A DNA stretch of 64,000 nt, taken from the IMG/VR virus record IMGVR_UViG_3300030108_003689, positions 10,613 to 74,612 of that record; one strand, 5' to 3'. Below the pieces are notes generated by a model. It saw only the letters and a program-made list of their open reading frames with translations. It ran no database searches and was not told the origin of the DNA. Both the position numbers and the translations under genes were made by a program. This stretch comes from a virus. How positions within the stretch are numbered: the first letter of the stretch is position 1; the number at the start of each line of letters is the position of its first letter. This document shows positions 54,412 to 64,000 of the stretch, one piece after another.

Positions 54412-54727
54412 ATTCATCCTCATGCCACTCTAAAAGATGGTTCCTCAGCTTATCAATAGACGGAACATTCTCCATCTGCTCACAAGCCATATAGATCTCG
54501 TCCACTACTACAAACAATGCACGCAGCATCTGACGCCGATCCTTGTGCTTGTCCAACTCGAACAATGCCCAAGGTATGTCCAGCCTTGATGGAATCTGCT
54601 TGCACCAATGAGGCACTGCTCTCCATTCATCTTGATGCATGGCCTTGTCAGCCAACCACGCATACCACTCTCGAATCACAACTCTCAGATTGCGAGATAC
54701 GAACTTTACATCCAACATCAGTTCCAC
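54404..54727 (-). CDS. Hypothetical protein
   Basis: 107-aa ORF overlapping neighbours in operon fashion. Confidence 0.65.
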   Translation of the reverse strand: MELMLDVKFVSRNLRVVIREWYAWLADKAMHQDEWRAVPHWCKQIPSRLDIPWALFELDKHKDRRQMLRALFVVVDEIYMACEQMENVPSIDKLRNHLLEWHEDEYE

Positions 54728-55680
54728 TTGGCCATGTTCTTGTTGCGAAATGTGCTGAAGTGAAACGGATCATGACAATCATTCCATTCAGGCCAAGATA
54801 CGCATCGCAGAATCTCGTCTACCTCGGACAACTCCACACGCACCCATCTGGCCTCGCATCCTTTAGACGCAACAAACGACAGCGCTCTTGGTAGAGAGTC
54901 TGGATCGTTCAAGTACTCGACCTGTGCCCGCTTCCAAAACTCTTGTGTGTGCTTGTGAGTTCTTCTTGTATGAAGCCTCAGATATGGCCCCATCTCTGGA
55001 GTAGGCAAAGACATCGCAACTCTATGATGTCTTTCCAGCATCTTCTTGAGTTGATGGTATTGACCATTCGGCACAACTGGACCATTCGACATGATGTAGT
55101 GATGCAGAAACCTAAAGGTAGTCCATGCCCATCTTGGCTTGTCTGATGGCATAGATAAGTGACCCTTGTACGGATCGTACGTCACACGACGCTTATCTCT
55201 CTCGGTCTGCAGCAAAACAGCAAATGCGTACTTGAATAAACGCCTTGGCGTAGCGAATGCGCCCCTCAGCACAGCAAGCCTACCGCTTGGATCACATATG
55301 GCCACTTGGTAGTCATTACATGTAAGAGACCATTCGCCTGACTCGAGAGCCTTCTCTCTTGCCTCCTCAGCCAACGGCCAGTCAATCTCACCAGACTTGT
55401 AGTTGGTATTCATGCTTGCAGTCTCAACAGGACGCAAGACATCCAGAAACCTTTCCGACAAGCCGCTATATTTGACCACTACGTCACCTGACTTGAGATG
55501 ACTCTGCGACTTTTCAGGTATGGCAGTAAGCCGAACGAATCGAACCTTGTCAGCAGCAACAGGCACAGGAAGCTCTTCTAAATAAGAATCGATTTCATCA
55601 GGGTTTGTTACTGGAACACCAAGAACGCCATCGATTCCCTTGGCTGGAAAACGACGCGCTAAACACACATAGTCAGTCAT
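54718..55680 (-). CDS. Hypothetical protein
   Basis: 320-aa ORF with GGAG RBS directly behind a sigma70-type promoter. Confidence 0.75.
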   Translation of the reverse strand: MTDYVCLARRFPAKGIDGVLGVPVTNPDEIDSYLEELPVPVAADKVRFVRLTAIPEKSQSHLKSGDVVVKYSGLSERFLDVLRPVETASMNTNYKSGEIDWPLAEEAREKALESGEWSLTCNDYQVAICDPSGRLAVLRGAFATPRRLFKYAFAVLLQTERDKRRVTYDPYKGHLSMPSDKPRWAWTTFRFLHHYIMSNGPVVPNGQYHQLKKMLERHHRVAMSLPTPEMGPYLRLHTRRTHKHTQEFWKRAQVEYLNDPDSLPRALSFVASKGCEARWVRVELSEVDEILRCVSWPEWNDCHDPFHFSTFRNKNMAKWN

Positions 55681-55933: not shown

Positions 55934-56389
55934 CTACATATCGTCACCTCCACAGGGGGGGCAGGCCATGGGGCCAGCACCGCCCACAGGGGGGGCACCG
56001 TCGCCGATGGCGAGGGCACCAGCCACCAGGGCGGCACGGGCACCAGCCACCAGGGCTGAGGCCTTACGGCGGAACCACCGCCCAGCAGCACCAGCCGCCG
56101 CGCGCGCGCCATTAAGAAGTGCAGCCACCACAGGGGGGGCAGCATCAGCCTCGGCACCGTCAACGATGGCGACCGGGGCAACCTCAGCAGCAGGGGCCAC
56201 CGGGGCAGCCTCGGCACCGTCAGCAGCAACCACCACCAGGGGGGAAGCGATGACGACGACGCGAGGGGCACCGGGGACCCGAAGCTGAGGAACCTTGGCC
56301 CAGGCCACGAATCGACCCGTCGCAGCACACCGAGCCCGTTGCCGGGGGGCGGCTGCGTCGAGGTCTGCAAAGGCAAGTGCGAAGGTCAT
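55934..56389 (-). CDS. Ala-rich low-complexity protein, possibly leaderless from a sigma54 promoter
   Basis: In-frame peptide repeats (DGAEA x2, ALVAGA x2); ATG about 2 nt after predicted TSS; overlaps other GC-rich ORFs, so uncertain. Confidence 0.45.
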   Translation of the reverse strand: MTFALAFADLDAAAPRQRARCAATGRFVAWAKVPQLRVPGAPRVVVIASPLVVVAADGAEAAPVAPAAEVAPVAIVDGAEADAAPPVVAALLNGARAAAGAAGRWFRRKASALVAGARAALVAGALAIGDGAPPVGGAGPMACPPCGGDDM

Positions 56390-56400
56390 GGCCCCTTCTT

Positions 56401-56418
56401 ATGCAAGTGCCGTGCCAA
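56401..56418 (-). promoter_or_regulatory. Sigma54 (-24/-12) promoter, leftward
   Basis: TTGGCAC-GGCAC-TTGCAT, a perfect match to TGGCAC-N5-TTGCW. Confidence 0.75.
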
Positions 56419-56466
56419 TCTTTGGCACACCCTGACGGGGGGCTCACCTGGCAGCAAACGGGCCAA

Positions 56467-56811
56467 AAACGCTGTACGCAAAGCCATTTTGGCACAACCA
56501 AGGTATGGCACAGGACTTGCATGGGGGGAGAGCATTTTTCCCTTGCCACGTCAACACCACGACTCGAAACCCAAAATGCTAAACGCTGTACGTCTCTGCA
56601 TTTGTCGTCCTTCGAAAAGTAGACCACGACATGTGTGTCGCGGTTTGGCAGGGTCTTCCAAACGTTGTACGTCTCTGCATCGAAATATTGCGTACAGCGT
56701 TTAGGCCATTCCTGACCACGACATATATGTCACGGTTTGGCATGGACTGTCTGTGCCAAATCAGGCCCCTACTGGTGAGTAGATTTTCAAAACCGCTGTA
56801 CGTCTCTGCAT
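56467..56811. repeat. Dispersed repeats AAACGCTGTACG(TCTCTGCAT) x5 and GACCACGACATRTRTGTCRCGGTTTGGCA x2
   Basis: First family at about 56467, 56581, 56660, 56689-56702 (inverted), 56791; second family at 56622-56650 and 56714-56742. Confidence 0.85.
56506..56522 (+). promoter_or_regulatory. Sigma54 (-24/-12) promoter, rightward 1
   Basis: TGGCAC-AGGAC-TTGCAT, a perfect consensus match. Confidence 0.75.
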
Positions 56812-56820
56812 TGGCACAGT

Positions 56821-56837
56821 TTGGCACGGTATGTGCT
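56821..56837 (+). promoter_or_regulatory. Sigma54 (-24/-12) promoter, rightward 2
   Basis: TTGGCACG-GTAT-GTGCT with exact GG-N10-GC spacing; predicted TSS about 56848. Confidence 0.6.
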
Positions 56838-56847
56838 ATATAGGTTG

Positions 56848-57433
56848 CCGACCGGCGGGACACTCCCCGCCCCGCTCTTTGACATCGTCAACCGGCTCCT
56901 TGCCAACACCAAGGTTGGAGCCGGCGAAGTGGAGGACATCAACACTCGCCCCCTTAGTTGTAGGGGGGTCGGACTCAACAAACAGTCCCCATCATCTGAT
57001 GACGTACCAGAACCGACCGGGCTCAGCCCTACTGCCACGGCAGGAACATCGGGGATTATCGGAAGCCAGACACCGACAGCGACCCCTGAGGGTAACAACC
57101 TCAGGCTGACCGGGTAGACGGCACTCAGTGAGGGGCTGGCCCATGAGAGCAAGCGAGGCCAGGAAGAGTGAGCGCAACAGCCCCTTTGAACGTGGGGTGG
57201 CGAAGACCGGGAGACAAGACCGGGAGCCAAGCACCGATGTCCGCAACCACTTGGGAATACTCCCTCAACACTCAACCACACTGCCGACTTGGAGGCAGTC
57301 CGGGCAACCCTTCACCCGGTCAATGAACTGGTCATCTCAACGAGGGCATCGGCAGCCGTGGCTGCTGCATGCATGGACCGCCAAACGCTCCCCCCTTCCA
57401 CTCCCGGAATGCAGGGGGGGCGCTGCAATCGTC
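56848..57433 (+). ncRNA. Candidate large structured non-coding RNA
   Basis: No credible ORF/RBS; dense local and long-range stems; bounded by a promoter and a hammerhead cleavage site. Confidence 0.5.
56854..56884 (+). promoter_or_regulatory. Hairpin plus boxA antitermination signal (rrn/nut-like)
   Basis: GGCGGG-acactc-CCCGCC followed by CGCTCTTTGACA (E. coli rrn boxA is TGCTCTTTAACA). Confidence 0.55.
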
Positions 57434-57485
57434 CGGTGCTGATGCTGCACCGCTGATGAGGGCCCACAGCAGGGCCGAAACGATT
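57427..57485 (+). ncRNA. Type III hammerhead ribozyme 1 (cleavage after GUC at 57433)
   Basis: Stem III AATCGT/ACGATT; stem I CGGTGC-TGATGCT-GCACCG; core CTGATGA(+G); stem II GGCCC-ACAGCA-GGGCC; GAAA. Confidence 0.9.
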
Positions 57486-57616
57486 CACATAGCCGTCGCC
57501 GGGGCTCCTCCAGCGTCAGACGAGAGTCGAGCCCTGGCGGGCGGCGGACCTCCCCCGGTTCGCTGCTCCGCCGCTCCGACGGCCAAGCACCTGCAACCCT
57601 CAAACCCAGAGAAACC

Positions 57617-57853
57617 AAGGTTCCCCGGTACTTTCCGGGCAGCACCTGGAACCCGAAACCCGACGCCGGATGGCTGGGGGACGGGCTGAACCTGGAAGGG
57701 TCCACTTTCACCTGGAACCCGAAACGCGATTATTGGGCCTCGAACGCCGGATATCGCGTGGCCGATGGTAGTTTCAAACCGGTAGAGAGCGATGCGCCGC
57801 TGACCCCCTACGCACTGAACCTCGCCATATCGCGCCTCTATTCGAGCCTGTGA
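57617..57853 (+). pseudogene. Coding-like frame lacking a canonical start codon
   Basis: 78 codons with high GC3 and TWNPK repeat; AAG where a start is expected. Confidence 0.35.
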
Positions 57854-57860
57854 GCCTCAA

Positions 57861-58055
57861 CCTGCCCCGACCTGCCCCGACCTTTCCCGCCTTTTTTGGT
57901 GGGGTTAGGGCAGCGATTATCCGGGGATGAAGCTCAACTATCATCGAGCAGGGGGTGAGGTTAGGGCAGAAAGCCCCCAACTTTTTCTCTCTCTCCCCCC
58001 TATGGGGTTCTCCCCCTTGCTCTTCTTTCCCTGAGGTTAGGGCAGGTTAGGGCAG
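57861..58055. repeat. Iteron-like GGTTAGGGCA x4 plus inverted variant x2 around a pyrimidine tract (candidate origin)
   Basis: Copies at 57903, 57959, 58035, 58045; CCTGCCCCGA x2 at 57861-57880; CT tract 57981-58000. Confidence 0.7.
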
Positions 58056-58150
58056 CAGCGAATAACCCAGGTACAACCGTTACTTTCAATCAACCCTGAC
58101 GGTCCAACCGTCAACCCCAACCGGGAGCCACTGGCCCCAACGGACACCCC

Positions 58151-58558
58151 ATGACCATGATTAGCAGCAACATCACCGCCCGGCGACCCACCGGAGTCGG
58201 ACTCCTCCCCTGGCAGGCACGCAGTGACGCCTGGACCGCTCAGATTCACTACCAGGGGCGCAGCATGACCGTGCCGTTTTTCACCGGGTCCGCGCATGCT
58301 CACCCCACAACCTGGGACGTGGTCTACTGCCTGCTCTCTGATGCCCACTATGTGATGTGGGGCCAGACCCTTGAAGAGTTCTGCTCGGACTTCGGGTACG
58401 ACCTTGACGACCCCGACAGCCGCGAAGCGAAGGAGGCCACCGCCACGTATCGCCAGACGGTCAAGCAGACTCGCAGCCTCAAGCGGTTGCTCGGCGATGA
58501 CTTCGAGCGGTTCATGGCCATGGACCTTGAAGAAGAACTGACGGCGCACTGCCAATAA
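58151..58558 (+). CDS. Conserved phage early hypothetical protein
   Basis: VPFFTG...PT..DV..CLLSDA...EEFCSDFGYD.D motif; high GC3. Confidence 0.8.
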   Translation: MTMISSNITARRPTGVGLLPWQARSDAWTAQIHYQGRSMTVPFFTGSAHAHPTTWDVVYCLLSDAHYVMWGQTLEEFCSDFGYDLDDPDSREAKEATATYRQTVKQTRSLKRLLGDDFERFMAMDLEEELTAHCQ

Positions 58559-58566
58559 CCCCCACC

Positions 58567-58582
58567 GGGGGCTTCGGCCCCC
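58567..58582 (+). other. C(UUCG)G tetraloop hairpin (repeated at about 58834)
   Basis: CACCGGGGGCTTCGGCCCC appears after two consecutive stops. Confidence 0.75.
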
Positions 58583-58596
58583 ATTGGATACCCACC

Positions 58597-58818
58597 ATGT
58601 CACGTGTTTACGAAGACTCAAACGGCAACCGCCGAGAGCACGACCTTCGCGGCGTGTACGTTATTCACCGCGACGGTGACAAGGTCACCGGCCACTACAT
58701 CAGCCGCAGCCGTGGTCGCTTTCACATTCACAAGTTCACCAACTGCACACTTGAATCGGTGGTTGAGCAAGCCGAGCGTCTCATTCATGAGCCGCCTGTC
58801 TACTTCCTGACCGCCTGA
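58597..58818 (+). CDS. Early hypothetical protein
   Basis: 73 aa, high GC3, flanked by UUCG hairpins. Confidence 0.7.
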   Translation: MSRVYEDSNGNRREHDLRGVYVIHRDGDKVTGHYISRSRGRFHIHKFTNCTLESVVEQAERLIHEPPVYFLTA

Positions 58819-58871
58819 ACCCCAACCCTCACCGGGGGCTTCGGCCCCTACCCCCTCACACTGGAGCTACC

Positions 58872-59309
58872 ATGTCAGCACTCATCAACGATTCCCACAT
58901 CTTCCTCAACTCAATGGCCCGCTTCGAGCCTGAGAGCCCCCTCGAAGAGGCCATGGGCCGCGACAACTTCGTCGAGATGGACCTTTTCAACGCTATGGCG
59001 CTCATGAGCACCAAACAAAAGGACATCCTCAACGAACTGGCGTTCAGGGGTGCCGAGTTCAGCCTTATCCGGGTCGCTCTTGGTAAGGGACGCGAGCGCC
59101 AGGGCACACTGAGGCTGTGTGTTCAGCGCAGCATCGCCTTCGACTCTGCTCACATCGACATCAGCCCCCGTGGCAAGGTGACCGGGATGGTGTTCGGCCA
59201 CCCATGGGCAACCGACAAGCGGAAGGCGCTGGGCGACGTGAAGGTGAAGAGCCTCCGCGACCTGACCAGCCACTACGGCGAGATGGGCTTGGATAGACTC
59301 GATGACTGA
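58872..59309 (+). CDS. Early hypothetical protein
   Basis: GGAG RBS, high GC3. Confidence 0.75.
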   Translation: MSALINDSHIFLNSMARFEPESPLEEAMGRDNFVEMDLFNAMALMSTKQKDILNELAFRGAEFSLIRVALGKGRERQGTLRLCVQRSIAFDSAHIDISPRGKVTGMVFGHPWATDKRKALGDVKVKSLRDLTSHYGEMGLDRLDD

Positions 59310-59352
59310 CAGTCTCTGGATAGTTCCCGAACAACTCAACCATGGAGACCCC

Positions 59353-59706
59353 ATGCACATGTTCTACCTCACGAGCAGGGCCGATAACACCGGCCCCCTG
59401 CTCGACCTGCTGCCGTCGTTTCACCTGAACAACGACACCCCAGACACTTCCCTGGTGGATGCTGGCTGGCGCTATGCCCAGTTCGCCTACACCGGGGCCC
59501 GTGTGCTGGTCCGGTGGAAGCAGAACCGCCGATGGCTCAACGCCTGGAGCAACTTCGTAACCGACTTCGAGGTCCGCCACGTTGACACCGTGGTTGACTC
59601 GGATGGCGTCATCTGGGCTGGCCTGGGTGAGCCTCACAACCTCAAGCTGTATGCACTCGCCGACCGTGTAGCGGAACGCGAGGGCTATCCCATCCTCTCT
59701 AAGTAG
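59353..59706 (+). CDS. Early hypothetical protein
   Basis: ATG 59353 after GGAG (alternative start 59302). Confidence 0.7.
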   Translation: MHMFYLTSRADNTGPLLDLLPSFHLNNDTPDTSLVDAGWRYAQFAYTGARVLVRWKQNRRWLNAWSNFVTDFEVRHVDTVVDSDGVIWAGLGEPHNLKLYALADRVAEREGYPILSK

Positions 59707-59746
59707 AACCCCCCACCCTCTCTCAAACAAACAGGAGCCCATCACT

Positions 59747-60697
59747 ATGGCTAAGTTCGACCCATACAAAGTAATCGCAGACACCCTCATCGCCTCCATC
59801 GAGGCAGGCACCCTCGCATGGCGCTGCGGCTGGAAGAAGCTGGGCGGCGCACTCGTTCGCCCCGTCAGCGGAGGCAGCGGCAAGCCTTACAACGGCATCA
59901 ACGTGCTGCTGCTCTGGGGCTCTGCTCAGGACCAGGGCTTCTGGTCGCCGACTTGGCACACCTACAAGGGTGCCCAGGGCAAGGGCGGCCAAGTCCGCAA
60001 GGGCGAGAAGGGCACCAAGATTGTGAAGTGGCTGTTCCTGCCCTACAAGGACCCCAAGACCGGCAAGCCCCAACTTGACGCCAACGGTGAGCCCATGACC
60101 TATGCACGGCTCAGGCTGTACACGGTCTTCAATGCCTGCCAGATTGAGTGGGCCGAGGGCAGCGAGCACGCCCCAGGGCCACGGCCTACGGTTGAGGACC
60201 ACGATGGCTCTCAAGCTGGCGACAACTTCGAGCAGGCCAAGGTCATCCTCGATGCATGGGCCACCGAGGTTGAGATTCGCCACGGCGGCGACCGTGCCTT
60301 CTACCGTCCATCGGATGACCACATCCAGTTGCCACTGTTCGAGCAGTTCGAGAGTGAGGCCGAGTACTTCTCGACCGCGTTCCACGAGGCCGTCCACAGC
60401 ACGGGCCACAAGTCCAGGCTGAACCGCTTCAAGAAGGAGCGCAAGGGCAGCTACAAGGATGCCTACGCATTCGAAGAGTTGGTCGCCGAGCTTGGCGCAG
60501 CGTTCCTCTGCTGCGATGCTGGTATCAGCCAGCCTGACGAGCCACGCGCCGACCACGCTGCGTACCTGAGCCACTGGCTCAAGGTCCTCAAGGGTGACCC
60601 CAAGGCCATCGTGTCTGCGGCATCCAAGGCCGAGAAGGCCGCCAAGCTGGTGCTCGCCAAGGCTGACGAGGCCGACCAGCAGATGGCCGCCAAGTAA
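59747..60697 (+). CDS. ardC: ArdC-like antirestriction protein (ssDNA-binding domain + zincin MPTase)
   Basis: GKPYNGINVLLLW, W.TYK.A...GGQVRKGEKG, YTVFNACQ, AFY.PS.D.I.LP, FHEAVHSTGH..RL.R, YAFEELVAELGAAFLC. Confidence 0.92.
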   Translation: MAKFDPYKVIADTLIASIEAGTLAWRCGWKKLGGALVRPVSGGSGKPYNGINVLLLWGSAQDQGFWSPTWHTYKGAQGKGGQVRKGEKGTKIVKWLFLPYKDPKTGKPQLDANGEPMTYARLRLYTVFNACQIEWAEGSEHAPGPRPTVEDHDGSQAGDNFEQAKVILDAWATEVEIRHGGDRAFYRPSDDHIQLPLFEQFESEAEYFSTAFHEAVHSTGHKSRLNRFKKERKGSYKDAYAFEELVAELGAAFLCCDAGISQPDEPRADHAAYLSHWLKVLKGDPKAIVSAASKAEKAAKLVLAKADEADQQMAAK

Positions 60698-60769
60698 TCT
60701 GTGAGAGGGTAGCAGTCCGCGCGGCCTGCTTTATCAAAGCCGCGCCCCCTTCAATCAACAGGAGCAATC

Positions 60770-61228
60770 ATGATCGACACTTTCAACCCCCTTGAGCTTC
60801 AGCGCGTCGAGGTCTACTGGAACCTCCACAAGAACCTGTGGAGCATCCGCAGCACAGCGACTGGCCGCCTGATACCGATACGCCCCCACCGTCAGAACCT
60901 ACACCTGATGTTCGTCAAGTGGGTAGTGCAGCCCGCTGGCCGTGCTCGTGTCCTCCGTGAGGGCCGTAAGAACGTCCATGCCTTCGCCCGTGGCTACCTC
61001 GTGCCTGATTGTGGCACCTTCAATCACTTCATGGTGGATGCTGAGGAGTACGCCGACGCTGACCCGCTCATGTACAACCCCTACAAAATGGACACCTTCC
61101 AGACTGTGGGCACCGGCAAGACGGTGCGCGAGTCCGAGAAGGCCTACCTCGACATGAGAGCAGGCCGCCCCCGCGTGTCCGCTGTTCGCAGCACCCCCAA
61201 CCCTTCACCCTTTGCACAGGAAGCATAA
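60770..61228 (+). CDS. Conserved phage early protein
   Basis: VYWNLHK..WSIR, V..AGR.RVLRE.RKNVHAF..G, YNPYK; AGGAG RBS. Confidence 0.8.
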   Translation: MIDTFNPLELQRVEVYWNLHKNLWSIRSTATGRLIPIRPHRQNLHLMFVKWVVQPAGRARVLREGRKNVHAFARGYLVPDCGTFNHFMVDAEEYADADPLMYNPYKMDTFQTVGTGKTVRESEKAYLDMRAGRPRVSAVRSTPNPSPFAQEA

Positions 61229-61503
61229 TGACTGACAACATCTCTTTCGACCGCACCTTCTGCATGAACCGTCACCACAACGACTGGGAGGAAGCGTGGC
61301 AGACGCTCGCCCGCCACTATTCGAACGCCCGCATGGCTGACAAGGTAAATGCCCCTTGCCCCTTCAGTGGCGAGTCCTGGCAGTACATGGGCAGCTACAA
61401 CAAGCCACAGGGCAACGTCCACACGTTCCGCCATCGCTGCCACCCTGGCATGGATGGCCAGCGCGTCAACGTCCGAGTGTTCATCCGGGGAGGTGAGATG
61501 TGA
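61228..61503 (+). CDS. Early hypothetical protein
   Basis: GESWQYMG...HTFRHRCHP motif; TAATG overlap. Confidence 0.75.
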   Translation: MTDNISFDRTFCMNRHHNDWEEAWQTLARHYSNARMADKVNAPCPFSGESWQYMGSYNKPQGNVHTFRHRCHPGMDGQRVNVRVFIRGGEM

Positions 61504-61907
61504 TTGCCCGATTCAAGGACAGCGTGAACGGCGGCGATGTCGTCGTCCAACTGAAGACCGGCCAGACCCTGCGGCACCACCGCTTCACACCCACCGATGA
61601 GGGGTATGACCGCACTATCATCGAGTGGGAATACGACGGGCACACGGTCACCCGTACCTACTTCAATGAGGGACGCGACTGCGACGGCTACATGTCCAGC
61701 CAGTTCGTCCAGTTCTGCCCTGTGGGCAGGCTTCGCTCGGAGACAGTGAACCGCCCGACTGGTGAACGGTGGGAAGCATTCACCGACTACGACGGCACCA
61801 CTGCCCACGAGTGTGTGACCACCTGGGAAGAGCAACCCGGCTGGCCCGCATGGACCGAGGACAGCCACGAGTACTACGACGCCAACGCTGTAGCCGCTGG
61901 CTACTGA
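61500..61907 (+). CDS. Early hypothetical protein
   Basis: GTG after GGAGG; PTDEGY, GRDCDG, D.NA.AAGY motifs. Confidence 0.75.
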   Translation: MIARFKDSVNGGDVVVQLKTGQTLRHHRFTPTDEGYDRTIIEWEYDGHTVTRTYFNEGRDCDGYMSSQFVQFCPVGRLRSETVNRPTGERWEAFTDYDGTTAHECVTTWEEQPGWPAWTEDSHEYYDANAVAAGY

Positions 61908-61930
61908 ACCCCCCCACCCCTGGAGCCCCC

Positions 61931-62026
61931 ATGACTTGGTACTGCTCTCTTTGCAAAACCTTCAATGCCCTTAACATCCTCCGCTGCCGCTGCTGTGGAA
62001 AGCATCGCGACGACAGCCGCTACTGA
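61931..62026 (+). CDS. 31-aa RanBP2-type zinc-finger microprotein
   Basis: MTWYCSLCKTFN...RCRCCG with GGAG RBS. Confidence 0.55.
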   Translation: MTWYCSLCKTFNALNILRCRCCGKHRDDSRY

Positions 62027-62052
62027 ACCCCCCCACTAACTGGAGAACCGAC

Positions 62053-62466
62053 ATGCCATGGACTGAAGAAGAGAAAGAGCAGCACCGTCAGCAAATGCGA
62101 GATGAGTATGCGAGAATCGCCGCAGAACTGAAGGCCGAGAAGGCGCGAGAGTGGGCGACCATTCCGCCCGAAGTTCTCGAAGTTCACAACGCCCTGACCG
62201 ATAACGCCCGGAAGGTCTACACGGACCCGGAAGAGTACGAGGCGATACGCCCGGTCCACACCTACCCAGAGGACTACTGGGAGGGCTCGGAGCGCAAGTA
62301 CACCGGGGCATGGGTCACCGGCAGTAACTACGAGGACGGCAAGGCCGTCATGGTCTGGAAGGACGGCGCGTGGTTCTACCACTCGACGCGGTCTGGTCAT
62401 CGGCGTCCGATGGAGGGCGGCCACGAAGAGGCGCTCGCGAATGCGTCAATCTTCTGGACTGGATGA
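62053..62466 (+). CDS. Early hypothetical protein
   Basis: GGAG RBS, high GC3. Confidence 0.75.
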   Translation: MPWTEEEKEQHRQQMRDEYARIAAELKAEKAREWATIPPEVLEVHNALTDNARKVYTDPEEYEAIRPVHTYPEDYWEGSERKYTGAWVTGSNYEDGKAVMVWKDGAWFYHSTRSGHRRPMEGGHEEALANASIFWTG

Positions 62467-62485
62467 GCGATGGCCCTTCGGGGCC

Positions 62486-62538
62486 GTGTCGGGGCGTGAT
62501 GCTCGCCCCCTGATGATGACCGAGCACGGTCGAAACAC
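62486..62538 (+). ncRNA. Type III hammerhead ribozyme 2 (cleavage after GUC at 62490)
   Basis: Stem III GTGT/ACAC; stem I GGGGCG-TGATGCT-CGCCCC; core CTGATGA(+T); stem II GACCG-AGCA-CGGTC; GAAA; intergenic. Confidence 0.9.
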
Positions 62539-62556
62539 AACCAACAGGAGCCCATC

Positions 62557-62760
62557 ATGAAGTACCCACCCGGAACCATTTTCACCGTCGGCTATCAACT
62601 CGAAAGCTGCTGGATGGTTATCCACACCAGCAAGGTCGAGGCCCGTAGCAAAGAAGAGGCCGTCAACAAGGTTGCGACTGACGTGCCCCGTTCCTACGGA
62701 CACTACGTCGATCGCATCCAAGGCACCCTTGGCCCCAAGAAGTCTGGAGGTGCGGCATGA
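62557..62760 (+). CDS. Early hypothetical protein
   Basis: AGGAG RBS just after hammerhead 2. Confidence 0.7.
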   Translation: MKYPPGTIFTVGYQLESCWMVIHTSKVEARSKEEAVNKVATDVPRSYGHYVDRIQGTLGPKKSGGAA

Positions 62761-63239
62761 GGCGCGACATCGACACCCTACGCTTCACCTTCCCGGCCCG
62801 CTCGGGCCGACCCATGGATGAAATCCGGTTCGGCCTGGAGGAGAACCTTGTGACGTTCTACTTCCGCCGCACTGGAACGGACACCACCGCGTACTGGATA
62901 GACCGCAAGGGTCTGGACATTGACGACTTGGACTTGATGGTGCTGGACTCAGTGTGCCCCTTGCGTAACCTTGGAGCACGGCAGGCCATCATGGACCTGT
63001 CGCGATACGCCCGCCACCTCCAATCTCAAGGCTTGGTGCAAGTCGGGAACTGTCGTCTCACCATCACTCGATGCGGGACAACCGGCGACCGGAGGTATTG
63101 CATGACCGGCCCGTCAGGGGTTCACACCCTCGACTTCGACAGCACCGACCCTAAACGACTGGAGGCCCACTGGCATGGCTTCCTGCACAATAACGGTTGC
63201 CCTCATTACAGGAGCCAGTGGAAAGCGCCCACTTCCTGA
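62757..63239 (+). CDS. Early hypothetical protein
   Basis: GGAGG RBS, ATGA overlap. Confidence 0.7.
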   Translation: MRRDIDTLRFTFPARSGRPMDEIRFGLEENLVTFYFRRTGTDTTAYWIDRKGLDIDDLDLMVLDSVCPLRNLGARQAIMDLSRYARHLQSQGLVQVGNCRLTITRCGTTGDRRYCMTGPSGVHTLDFDSTDPKRLEAHWHGFLHNNGCPHYRSQWKAPTS

Positions 63240-63318
63240 CCTATGTCCGCGTTTAGAACCCCTCTCGTTCTGTAGGGTGAGAGGCAAACCAAACAACCCC
63301 CGACACACAGGAGCCATC

Positions 63319-63468
63319 GTGAACGACTCAAGAAAAGCAACCGGATCCTTCCGGTTCATCATCGGCAAGCCTTGCAGGTTCTGGACCGACACAGTTGGCA
63401 ACGGCTTTCTCATGGACAACTGGGGCAACCTGCTTCCAGTTCCAAACATCAAAACAATCACCCAATAG
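63319..63468 (+). CDS. Small early hypothetical protein (49 aa)
   Basis: GTG after ACAGGAGCCATC, the same RBS cassette as neighbours. Confidence 0.55.
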   Translation: MNDSRKATGSFRFIIGKPCRFWTDTVGNGFLMDNWGNLLPVPNIKTITQ

Positions 63469-63478
63469 GAGGTGTATC

Positions 63479-63835
63479 ATTACACCCATCACTAATCGTC
63501 AAATGTCCGCTCGGCTTCGCAAGCTGGGCTTCCGCAAGTCCCGCTTCCAAATGAGCCGCAATGGTGTGAGCTTCGAGCATCCCGATGCATCGGCGCTGTT
63601 CACCTTCGGCAAGCACCCTGAAAGCAGCGTCATGGTCACCGCGCCCGACAACCCTGGGTGGTCGTTCGCCTTCCTGACTGAAGACACCTGGGACCGCATC
63701 CAGCGCAACCCTTGGGTAGTCCTGCCATGGGAGGAGCCCAAGGACGGGGTAGAGCAGCCCCTGTGCCACCGTGAGATTCTACTGTGCTGGGCTCGCGCCT
63801 TCGCCGCCATGCTCGCCGAGTCGGGTGAGGAATAG
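63479..63835 (+). CDS. Early hypothetical protein (ATT 63479 or ATG 63503 start)
   Basis: Perfect AGGAGGT at 63467-63473 precedes in-frame ATC/ATT; coding-like downstream. Confidence 0.65.
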   Translation: MTPITNRQMSARLRKLGFRKSRFQMSRNGVSFEHPDASALFTFGKHPESSVMVTAPDNPGWSFAFLTEDTWDRIQRNPWVVLPWEEPKDGVEQPLCHREILLCWARAFAAMLAESGEE

Positions 63836-63863
63836 GCCAACCGGCCCCCCCATACTGACAGAC

Positions 63864-63893
63864 TTGACACCCCGAACCAAACAAGTGTATAAG
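63864..63893 (+). promoter_or_regulatory. Sigma70-type promoter
   Basis: TTGACA-18 nt-TATAAG. Confidence 0.55.
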
Positions 63894-63902
63894 GAGATTC
63901 TG

Positions 63903-64000
63903 ATGAGCGATACACACACACAGCCCAAGGTTGACTTCATCCACAATCAAGTAGAGAACAGGCTGCAAAGCCTGCGCTCTCTTCTGGAGGGTGAGTACGC
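63903..64000 (+). CDS. Hypothetical protein, 3' truncated by window edge
   Basis: AAGGAG then ATG AGC GAT...; open to the end of the window. Confidence 0.6.
   Translation, partial: MSDTHTQPKVDFIHNQVENRLQSLRSLLEGEY

What the first reader, a model, noticed from the sequence alone, without database searches (positions are those of the whole stretch)
56848..57433. ~590-nt structured leader RNA with a ribozyme-defined 3' end
Seen: no ORF with an RBS, but many stems: CCGGCTCC/GGAGCCGG (~56892-56924), GGTCGG/CCGACC (~56947-57018), CCTGAGG/CCTCAGG (~57085-57105), AGGGGCTG/CAGCCCCT (~57131-57185), long-range ACATCGG/CCGATGT (~57046/57234), GACCGGG/CCCGGTC, a tandem AAGACCGGGAG, and CGCTCCCCCC/GGGGGGGCG just before hammerhead 1. 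Inference: a new class of large phage ncRNA (in the sense of GOLLD/ROOL-type RNAs), for example a decoy for host RNA-binding or defence proteins, released intact by hammerhead 1.
Basis: partly seen in the sequence, partly recalled or inferred. Interest (0 to 1): 0.78.

Follow-up and report, generated by a model that had tools for sequence, protein, structure and literature searches.

The report
New large structured phage RNA
A 586-base gene-free stretch at the start of the early region of an uncultured marine N4-like phage encodes a large, intricately folded RNA that matches no catalogued RNA family, is kept in related ocean phages, and has its 3' end cut by a self-cleaving hammerhead; its job is unknown.

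Summary
The region is real, non-coding and conserved. I found 13 distinct homologues, falling into about 8 lineages, in marine metagenome and virus contigs. They show no codon periodicity, their indels are not multiples of three, and no reading frame stays open in all of them. A fold predicted from one sequence alone is kept by its relatives: 85% and 95% of cells pair in the two clades, against 36-47% when partners are slid. There are 27 and 16 pairs with compensatory changes, against 0-9 in the slid controls. The tandem repeat is present and probably forms a hairpin. Four stems are not supported, and covariation gives two of them better partners: three nested long-range helices and a local hairpin. 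The type III hammerhead that cuts after 57433 is credible, because all three stems covary. Rfam 15 has no match for the body.

New points:
- A hairpin plus a boxA-like motif is the best-kept 5' feature.
- Two invariant, mutually complementary hexaloops (CCACGG and CCGUGG) are present.
- More distant relatives carry an equivalent unit, matched by position and shared motifs, that ends in an intrinsic terminator instead of a hammerhead. This argues for a discrete RNA rather than a mere leader.

Function, promoter and expression remain untested. This scan has noted comparable boxA-bearing large phage RNAs on other DNA.

The parts
56848..57433 (+). The whole structured non-coding RNA unit (586 nt). 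The 5' end is inferred from a promoter-like motif. The 3' end is the hammerhead cleavage site.
   Evidence: Conserved in 13 distinct homologues. Non-coding. Structure is kept, with compensatory changes. No Rfam family matches.
56822..56837 (+). TGGCAC-N5-GTGC motif, resembling a sigma-54 -24/-12 element. It is a candidate promoter that would place the start near 56848.
   Evidence: Read directly from the sequence. Kept in L003, L157, L139, L160, L127 and L129. Function is inferred only; a second, perfect TGGCAC-N5-TTGCA lies at 56506-56522.
56854..56871 (+). 5' hairpin P1 (GGCGGG / CCCGCC)
   Evidence: Every lineage has a hairpin here with a different sequence: AGCGGG/CCCGCU, GACGGG/CCCGUC, GGCGG/CCGCC, GCCGG/CCGGC and UGGC/GCCA.
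56874..56886 (+). boxA-like motif GCUCUUUGACAUC
   Evidence: The best-conserved island of the 5' part in all clades, with core UCUUU-N-A-M-A-U-C. It occurs exactly only once in the window. Its identity as boxA rests on resemblance to the E. coli rrn boxA as I recall it and was not tested against a host.
56892..56924 (+). Hairpin P2 (CCGGCUCC ... GGAGCCGG). Clade B has a three-way junction here.
   Evidence: Pairs change on both sides: GC/CG, CG/GC/UG, CG/UA; the inner pair is CG/GC. The same compensatory variant is seen in environmental contigs at 56896/56897 and 56919/56920.
56927..56947 (+). 5' strands of three nested long-range helices: AAGUGG (56927-56932), GGACAUC (56934-56940) and CACUC (56943-56947)
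   Evidence: Their partners are at 57247-57252, 57236-57242 and 57166-57170. Compensated variants: AAAUGG/CCAUUU; GGAUAUC/GAUAUCC; CAUUC/GAAUG, CAAUC/GAUUG and, in clade B, CGCUC/GAGCG.
56949..56967 (+). C-rich hairpin (CCCCCU / AGGGGG)
   Evidence: Kept in all lineages with shifted or changed arms: CCCCCUGG/CCAGGGGG, CCCCCCGG/CCGGGGGG and CUCCCCG/CGGGGAG.
57033..57042 (+). Small hairpin presenting the invariant hexamer CCACGG
   Evidence: Invariant in clades A and B. In clades C-E the same hexamer tops hairpins with different stems: CCG/CGG, CCGG/CCGG.
57085..57105 (+). Hairpin CCUGAGG / CCUCAGG
   Evidence: Other lineages have an unrelated hairpin sequence at the same position: GGCCCA/UGGGCU, GACCU/GGGUC, GACGC/GCGUC, GUCACC/GGUGGC, GCUGCC/GGUAGC.
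57166..57170 (+). 3' strand (GAGUG) of long-range helix L3
   Evidence: 100% paired with 56943-56947. Three pair types occur at the middle position in clade A.
57180..57198 (+). Invariant hairpin GCCCC-UUUGAACGU-GGGGU
   Evidence: The stem is kept in all 13 sequences. L175 keeps the stem with a different, longer loop.
57203..57228 (+). Tandem AAGACCGGGAG, probably a CCGG/CCGG hairpin (57207-57210 / 57220-57223)
   Evidence: Direct repeat. Invariant pairing in clade A. Clade B has an 8-bp hairpin here.
57236..57252 (+). 3' strands GAUGUCC and CCACUU of long-range helices L2 and L1
57281..57319 (+). Two adjacent hairpins: CUGCC/GGCAG and CCGGG/CCCGG
   Evidence: Changes on both sides: UA to CG and CG to GC in the first, GC to CG in the second.
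57346..57372 (+). Long hairpin presenting the invariant hexamer CCGUGG (57356-57361), which is complementary to CCACGG at 57035-57040
   Evidence: Three stem pairs have 2-3 pair types each: AU/GC/GU, CG/UA/UG and AU/CG/UA. The same hexamer sits at a hairpin apex in clades C-E.
57386..57422 (+). 3'-terminal hairpin CGCUCCCCC / GGGGGGGCG. Its conserved loop contains CUCCCGG (57401-57407), complementary to the CCGGGAG repeats.
   Evidence: 100% paired, with only U.G to C-G changes. The loop-to-repeat pairing is my inference and is not supported in clade B.
57427..57485 (+). Type III hammerhead ribozyme; cleavage between C57433 and C57434
   Evidence: RF00008, 32.5 bits. The core CUGAUGA ... GAAAC and the GUC triplet are present, and 8 of 15 stem pairs change on both sides across 11 sequences. 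Self-cleavage itself was not tested.

Best explanation
This is a gene for a discrete, highly folded non-coding RNA of about 560-700 nt. It is a new family carried by a group of marine N4-like phages at the very start of their rightward (early) gene block.

Shown:
- The sequence is non-coding and conserved.
- It adopts a multi-domain fold with a 5' hairpin, about a dozen local hairpins and three nested long-range helices.
- A credible hammerhead lies exactly at its 3' end.

Inferred steps:
1. Host RNA polymerase starts at the TGGCAC-type motif upstream.
2. The nascent hairpin plus boxA-like sequence recruits NusB/NusE-type factors. The polymerase can then finish this long untranslated RNA without Rho termination.
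3. The RNA folds, and its two complementary hexaloops (CCACGG and CCGUGG) pair within or between molecules.
4. The hammerhead cuts after C57433. This frees the RNA with a 2',3'-cyclic phosphate and leaves a 5'-OH on the downstream early transcript. In sister clades a terminator releases the RNA instead.
5. The freed RNA acts in trans early in infection, most likely as a scaffold or sponge for a host factor. The Nus factors bound at its own boxA are one concrete candidate.
For: Conservation:
- There are 13 distinct homologues in about 8 lineages (48-92% identity). The region is 86.5% identical to L003, while the neighbouring coding DNA is 76% identical.

Non-coding.

Structure:
- The single-sequence MFE of the window laid on clade A gives 85.3% paired against 36-47% slid, and 27 double-change pairs against 3-9. 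No shuffle out of 500 reached the observed values.
- Clade B gives 94.9% against 38-47%, and 16 against 0-4.
- Long-range helices have independent compensations.

Strand: the z-score is -1.96 on the plus strand and -0.75 on the minus strand. The hammerhead, boxA and all downstream genes are on the plus strand.

Discrete unit:
- The hammerhead sits at the 3' end in clades A and B.
- Clades C-E, identified as equivalents by position and shared motifs only, have the same hallmarks: 5' hairpin, boxA-like motif, CCACGG hairpin and CCGUGG hairpin about 300 nt later. About 40 nt after that comes a GC hairpin plus T-run, whose stem shows a compensated change from GGCGA/UCGCC to GGUGA/UCACC.
- Clade C is itself structured: 79.5% paired against 37-43%, and 22 double-change pairs against 3-7.

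No Rfam match.
Against: - Transcription, the 5' end, ribozyme activity and any trans function are untested.
- The one RNA-library contig (57282-57446) crosses the cleavage site by 13 nt and could be DNA carry-over.
- N4-type phages are known to transcribe early genes with their own virion polymerase, which would not use boxA. So host-polymerase transcription is an assumption.
- The G.U versus A.C count did not single out the plus strand.
- nhmmer does not link clades C-E to clades A and B. Their homology rests on position and short motifs.
- Both hexaloops are invariant, so their pairing cannot be tested by covariation.
Confidence: 0.6

Rival explanations
1. It is only a cis-acting 5' leader of the early polycistronic transcript. 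The hairpin and boxA make the polymerase termination-resistant. The folded body protects an untranslated stretch from Rho and nucleases while transcription draws the genome into the cell. The hammerhead then discards it and gives the mRNA a 5'-OH end. The RNA has no function once released.
For: It sits first in the rightward block, directly after promoter-like motifs. The boxA-like motif is its best-kept part. Hammerheads that cut phage polycistronic RNAs into gene blocks are known (PMC3088659), and a second one lies at 62490. From my memory, unchecked: T7 has a long non-coding early leader removed by RNase III.
Against: A spacer would not need three nested long-range helices, invariant complementary hexaloops and about 15 conserved hairpins kept across lineages that are only 48-55% identical. 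In clades C-E the unit ends in a terminator-like hairpin and T-run, which would stop rather than lead the downstream message. About 700 nt of further non-coding sequence and a new repeat array separate the ribozyme from the first ORF at 58151.
Confidence: 0.25
2. It is a sensor or regulatory domain that controls the adjacent hammerhead or downstream expression. On this reading it is an allosteric ribozyme or riboswitch-like leader, and the large fold decides whether cleavage or read-through occurs.
For: The 3'-terminal hairpin ends 4 nt before the first strand of hammerhead stem III. In the L004 single-sequence fold the 5' end pairs with the stem III strand (helix 1), which could compete with ribozyme folding.
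Against: Clades C-E keep the same kind of unit but have no hammerhead within several kb. No known riboswitch aptamer matches. The 5'-to-3' pairing seen in L004 has no counterpart in the window.
Confidence: 0.08
3. The conservation acts at the DNA level. The region would be the genome terminus, a packaging site, a replication origin or a set of protein-binding sites. GCCACGGC and GCCGTGGC, for example, are one site in two orientations.
For: The region lies where late and early arms diverge, next to dense repeat arrays. The two invariant octamers form an inverted DNA repeat 320 bp apart. The G.U versus A.C count is symmetric.
Against: Compensatory changes occur in helices whose strands lie 220-320 nt apart, and in many short hairpins whose sequences are otherwise free to change. 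DNA-binding sites do not explain that. A ribozyme and a boxA-like motif bracket the unit on one strand. The plus strand folds better relative to its own shuffles than the minus strand does.
Confidence: 0.05
4. It encodes one or more small proteins missed because of unusual start codons. Candidates are the 92- and 104-aa plus-strand ORFs or the 164-aa minus-strand ORF.
For: G+C-rich sequence gives long open frames here. The minus-strand frame is open for 154-194 aa in the window, L003 and L157.
Against: Each of these frames has 3-12 stops in other homologues. Substitutions are evenly spread over the three codon positions. Indels are mostly 1-2 nt.
Confidence: 0.02

Closest known systems
GOLLD and ROOL (large 'ornate' non-coding RNAs often carried by phages and prophages; Rfam families; cryo-EM homo-oligomers in PMC12286853)
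   Same: It is a several-hundred-nucleotide, G+C-rich, multi-domain RNA of unknown function. It is phage-borne, defined by covariation rather than by any protein partner, and has loops that could mediate RNA-RNA contacts.
   Different: There is no sequence or structure match to either covariance model. It lies at a fixed place at the head of the early region of N4-like phages. It carries a boxA-like signal. Its 3' end is set by a hammerhead or a terminator. Oligomerisation here is only a conjecture.
rrn operon leader antitermination signal (boxB-like hairpin followed by boxA; NusB/NusE/NusA/NusG/SuhB complex)
   Same: A hairpin is followed within 2-15 nt by GCUCUUUGACAUC near the 5' end of a long, structured, untranslated RNA. 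This is the same order of elements as in rrn leaders. By my recollection it matches the E. coli rrn boxA UGCUCUUUAACAA at 11 of 13 positions.
   Different: It is phage-borne. The host and its own boxA are unknown. No Nus binding or antitermination was tested. N4-type phages normally use a virion polymerase for early genes.
Type III hammerhead ribozymes that flank genes in phage and prophage transcripts (Rfam RF00008; Perreault et al. 2011, PMC3088659)
   Same: The core, the GUC site and three covarying stems are present. There are two same-strand copies bracketing a gene block that includes an anti-restriction (ArdC-like) gene. This resembles the ardA block of A. tumefaciens described in that paper.
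   Different: The hammerhead here releases a large non-coding RNA rather than separating two protein genes. It has an extra nucleotide between A9 and stem II, or a 13-nt hairpin there in three relatives. It scores below the Rfam gathering cut-off.
phi29 pRNA (packaging RNA that multimerises through complementary loops)
   Different: pRNA is about 170 nt, unrelated in sequence, and works on the portal of phi29-like phages. Here the loops are hexamers 320 nt apart and may just as well pair within one molecule. The resemblance is recalled from memory and was not tested.

Membership tests
Hammerhead ribozyme, type III (RF00008) | Conserved core CUGANGA ... GAAA and a cleavable NUH triplet | tested here: met
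   CUGAUGA at 57453-57459, GAAA at 57477-57480, GUC at 57431-57433. All are invariant in 11 sequences apart from N7 = U or A.
Hammerhead ribozyme, type III (RF00008) | Three helices around the core, with stems I and II closed and stem III open, supported by covariation | tested here: met
   8 of 15 predicted pairs change on both sides, spread over all three stems.
Hammerhead ribozyme, type III (RF00008) | Score at or above the Rfam gathering threshold | tested here: not met
   32.5 bits against 48.5. The hammerhead is not reported in the whole-window search. The shortfall is probably due to the extra nucleotide after A9 and the 7-nt loop I.
Hammerhead ribozyme, type III (RF00008) | Self-cleavage activity | not testable with these tools
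   This needs in vitro transcription of 56848-57490.
rrn-type boxA antitermination signal | boxA consensus sequence near the 5' end of the transcript, preceded by a hairpin | tested here: inconclusive
   GCUCUUUGACAUC lies 2 nt after a covarying hairpin. The core UCUUU.AMAUC is kept in clades A-E. The comparison with the bacterial consensus is from memory, and a literature search for the sequence gave nothing useful.
rrn-type boxA antitermination signal | Match to the host's own rrn boxA; NusB/NusE binding; transcription by host RNA polymerase | not testable with these tools
   The host is unknown, since this is an uncultured virus record. The control genomes gave no usable loci.
GOLLD / ROOL / other catalogued large RNAs (Rfam 15) | Match to the family covariance model | tested here: not met
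   There is no hit for the body at the gathering threshold or at E up to 10 in the window, or at E up to 1 in four relatives.
Sigma-54 promoter | TGGCAC-N5-TTGC with GG and GC ten bases apart | tested here: met
   TGGCAC GGTAT GTGC at 56822-56836. Relatives have GTGC or ATGC. The motif alone does not show use. An activator protein and the start site were not tested.
Structured non-coding RNA (general criterion) | Base pairs kept by compensatory changes more often than in controls | tested here: met
   No shuffle out of 500 reached the observed covariation score, and slid controls gave 2-5 times fewer double changes. Caveat: there are only 5-8 sequences per clade, and the shuffle control ignores relatedness.

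The most novel reading that the evidence does not exclude
The RNA is the founding member of an undescribed class of boxA-headed early phage RNAs that work as RNA-only machines. The boxA end holds the host's NusB/NusE. Together these would drain the rRNA antitermination system and shut down host ribosome synthesis at the onset of infection.
Probability: 0.12. Interest if true: 0.9.

Novelty: new variant of a known kind. Interest (0 to 1): 0.7.

Why it matters
Very few large structured RNAs of phages are known, and none has an established function. This one comes with unusually clear handles:
- a fixed place at the head of the early region of a widespread group of ocean phages;
- a probable host-factor recruitment signal;
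- a 3' end made by a ribozyme in some lineages and by a terminator in others;
- two invariant complementary loops that can be tested by paired mutations.

It would also mean that N4-like phages, the textbook case of early transcription by an injected polymerase, include lineages whose first product is an RNA, possibly made by the host enzyme. Earlier notes of this scan describe similar boxA-bearing large RNAs in unrelated phages, so the arrangement may be general.

Tried and rejected
- **The look-up of encoding contigs:** Contigs behind the 26 homologues of the anchor protein could not be fetched that way. The search for related loci with the alignment was used instead.
- **Phage GenBank collection:** no blastn match to 56300-58200.
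- **Peptide-based searches** with the downstream ORF and with the stop-free frame 57593-57850 found no relatives.
- **A loose hammerhead pattern** in viral contigs gave mostly chance hits. Two leader patterns found only the three known relatives plus chance hits in coding DNA.
- **RNAalifold on plain MAFFT alignments** of both clades together missed most helices, because arms were misaligned. A strict all-column helix scan found only 4.
- **G.U versus A.C counts** did not discriminate the strand.
- **RNA evidence:** one oligo-dT run holds a single 165-nt contig, 57282-57446. Two metatranscriptomes from a sample that holds the phage DNA had nothing laid on the stretch. This counts neither for nor against expression.
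- **Literature searches** for boxA sequences and for N4-like phage non-coding RNAs or hammerheads gave nothing relevant.
- **Control-genome 16S search** gave no loci from which to read host boxA.
- **nhmmer with the clade A/B profile** did not reach clades C-E.
- **The octamer GCCACGGC** is not unique to the RNA; it occurs 5 times in the window.
- **The terminator scan** recognised the clade D terminator but not the clade C one, which has a 4-T run in L184.
- **Not used:** covariance models were not built. The remaining viral and genome collection scans were not spent.

Full report
**Where it is.** The window is bases 10613-74612 of a 74.6-kb uncultured virus record. A 3434-aa ORF on the minus strand, the size of the N4 virion RNA polymerase, and the gene order mark it as an N4-like phage. 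Leftward late genes end at 56389 and rightward genes begin after about 56850. G+C rises there from about 0.48 to about 0.61. DNA nearly identical to the stretch is held by marine, estuary and seawater metagenomes from 13 studies.

**The observation.** The stretch 56848-57433 has only G+C-driven ORFs. A type III hammerhead follows at 57427-57485, with GUC at 57431-57433. It scores 32.5 bits, under Rfam's cut-off of 48.5. Across 11 sequences, including the window's second copy at 62490, the core is invariant and 8 of 15 stem pairs change on both sides. Folding energy alone is weak evidence: z = -1.96 for the window, -2.06 and -3.69 for two relatives, and -0.75 for the reverse complement.

**Relatives.** I used the 320-aa late protein at 54718-55680 as an anchor. 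It has 26 homologues. Searching with their alignment, I fetched 63 loci from viral and metagenome contigs. A profile of the stretch found 18 of them, 13 of which are distinct. They fall into two clades:
- Clade A: the window, L003, L157, the L139 group, L160 and L175.
- Clade B: L004/L002, L162, L148 and L127. Clade B is 48-60% identical to clade A.

L003 is 86.5% identical over 56624-57486, while the adjacent coding DNA is 76% identical.

**Not coding.** No frame is open in all homologues. Substitutions fall evenly on the three codon positions, for example 46/44/45 for the window against L139. Indels are mostly 1-2 nt.

**Structure.** To avoid circularity I took the minimum-energy fold of one sequence alone and asked whether the relatives keep it.

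| Test | Cells paired | Slid controls | Double-change pairs | Slid controls |
|---|---|---|---|---|
| Clade A, window fold | 85.3% | 36-47% | 27 | 3-9 |
| Clade A, 17 curated local hairpins | 88.5% | 38-56% | 13 | 2-8 |
| Clade B, L004 fold | 94.9% | 38-47% | 16 | 0-4 |

In all three tests no shuffle out of 500 reached the observed covariation score. The sets are small (5-8 sequences) and the shuffle control ignores relatedness. The slid controls, which keep relatedness, are therefore the more telling comparison.

**Which stems hold.**
- Supported: P2 (56892-56899 / 56917-56924), the hairpin at 57085-57105, and the terminal hairpin 57386-57394 / 57414-57422.
- Not supported: GGUCGG/CCGACC, AGGGGCUG/CAGCCCCU, ACAUCGG/CCGAUGU and GACCGGG/CCCGGUC.

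Covariation instead supports three nested long-range helices:
- AAGUGG 56927 / CCACUU 57247 (L139: AAAUGG/CCAUUU).
- GGACAUC 56934 / GAUGUCC 57236 (L175: GGAUAUC/GAUAUCC).
- CACUC 56943 / GAGUG 57166 (CAUUC/GAAUG and CAAUC/GAUUG; clade B has CGCUC/GAGCG at the equivalent place).

Clade B has the same nested topology, with its own compensations (helices 8-10). Every lineage has a 5' hairpin of different sequence.

**Conserved single-stranded features.**
- GCUCUUUGACAUC at 56874-56886 follows the 5' hairpin. It is the best-kept island of the 5' part. I could confirm its conservation but not its identity with a host boxA.
- Two invariant hexamers sit at hairpin tips: CCACGG (57035-57040) and CCGUGG (57356-57361). 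They are exact complements. The stems beneath them covary.

**A wider family with a different 3' end.** Loci whose anchor protein is only 50-64% identical gave no profile hit, but they hold a 550-620-nt G+C-rich gene-free unit at the same place. It has a 5' hairpin, a boxA-like motif, a CCACGG-tipped hairpin about 190 nt later and a CCGUGG-tipped hairpin about 300 nt after that. Then, about 40 nt on, comes a GC hairpin followed by a T-run instead of a hammerhead. The terminator stem shows a compensated change, GGCGA/UCGCC to GGUGA/UCACC. The L184 fold is kept in that clade: 79.5% paired against 37-43%, and 22 double-change pairs against 3-7.

Of about 32 loci with enough upstream DNA, about 29 have one or the other form. 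L143 has none. L187 has a boxA-headed RNA of another kind that ends in a hammerhead. L129 joins a clade-A-type promoter motif and 5' hairpin to a clade-C-type body.

That two unrelated devices mark the same boundary is my main reason to read the unit as a discrete RNA and not as a disposable leader.

**Known families.** Rfam 15 has nothing for the body, in the window or in four relatives. Hammerheads flanking gene blocks in phage transcripts, including around an anti-restriction gene, are described (PMC3088659). Large ornate phage RNAs that assemble into RNA-only multimers are described (PMC12286853). Neither covers this RNA. Notes from this scan report comparable boxA-bearing or hammerhead-ended large RNAs in other phages. 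I did not test those notes.

**Expression.** One oligo-dT RNA run holds a 165-nt contig covering 57282-57446, and nothing else was found. This is not evidence of transcription.

**Verdict.** A new family of large structured phage RNA is well supported. Its boundaries are reasonable: the 3' end is firm and the 5' end is inferred. Biogenesis by boxA-assisted transcription and ribozyme release is plausible. Its function is open.

Noticed in passing
L157:146-226, L175:39-119, L002:713-793 (minus strand): In three relatives the hammerhead carries a 13-nt hairpin (GCCGARAGGCYNC) inserted between core A9 and stem II. The window's two hammerheads have a single extra nucleotide at that spot. This is an unusual place for an insertion.
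   Followed up: partly
window 57487-57580: Directly after the RNA's 3' end, all clades have a second conserved folded element. It starts with ACAUAGCC and continues with GCCG..GGGCUCC ... GAGCCC..GGCGG..GGACCU.
   Followed up: no
window 57443-57853: A 136-codon stop-free frame has no ATG, GTG or TTG before 57758. Its last 80 codons look protein-like, but L003 has TAA in that frame. It contains three copies of a 21-mer, CACCTGGAACCCGAAAC.., at 57588, 57643 and 57709.
   Followed up: partly
window 57862-58055: There are four copies of GGTTAGGGCAG, and upstream of them two inverted copies, CTGCCCCGACCT. This is a second regulatory-looking array between the non-coding block and the first ORF at 58151.
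   Followed up: no
window 56401-56837: There are four direct copies and one inverted copy of AAACGCTGTACGTCTCTGCATT, several TGGCAC boxes and a perfect TGGCAC-N5-TTGCA at 56506-56522. The 22-mer also precedes the unit in the distant L187.
   Followed up: partly
L129 (upstream of the anchor gene, minus strand): This is a mosaic unit: a clade-A-type promoter motif and 5' hairpin are joined to a clade-C-type RNA body with a terminator. A DNA-run contig also shows the hammerhead preceded by unrelated sequence (loose end at 57431). The modules appear to be exchanged between phages.
   Followed up: partly
window 59747-60697: An ArdC-N plus zincin-peptidase (anti-restriction-like) gene lies inside the block bracketed by the two hammerheads. 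This recalls ardA flanked by hammerheads in Agrobacterium (PMC3088659).
   Followed up: no
window 56000-64000: G+C is about 0.61 in the rightward block, against about 0.48 in the rest of the phage.
   Followed up: no
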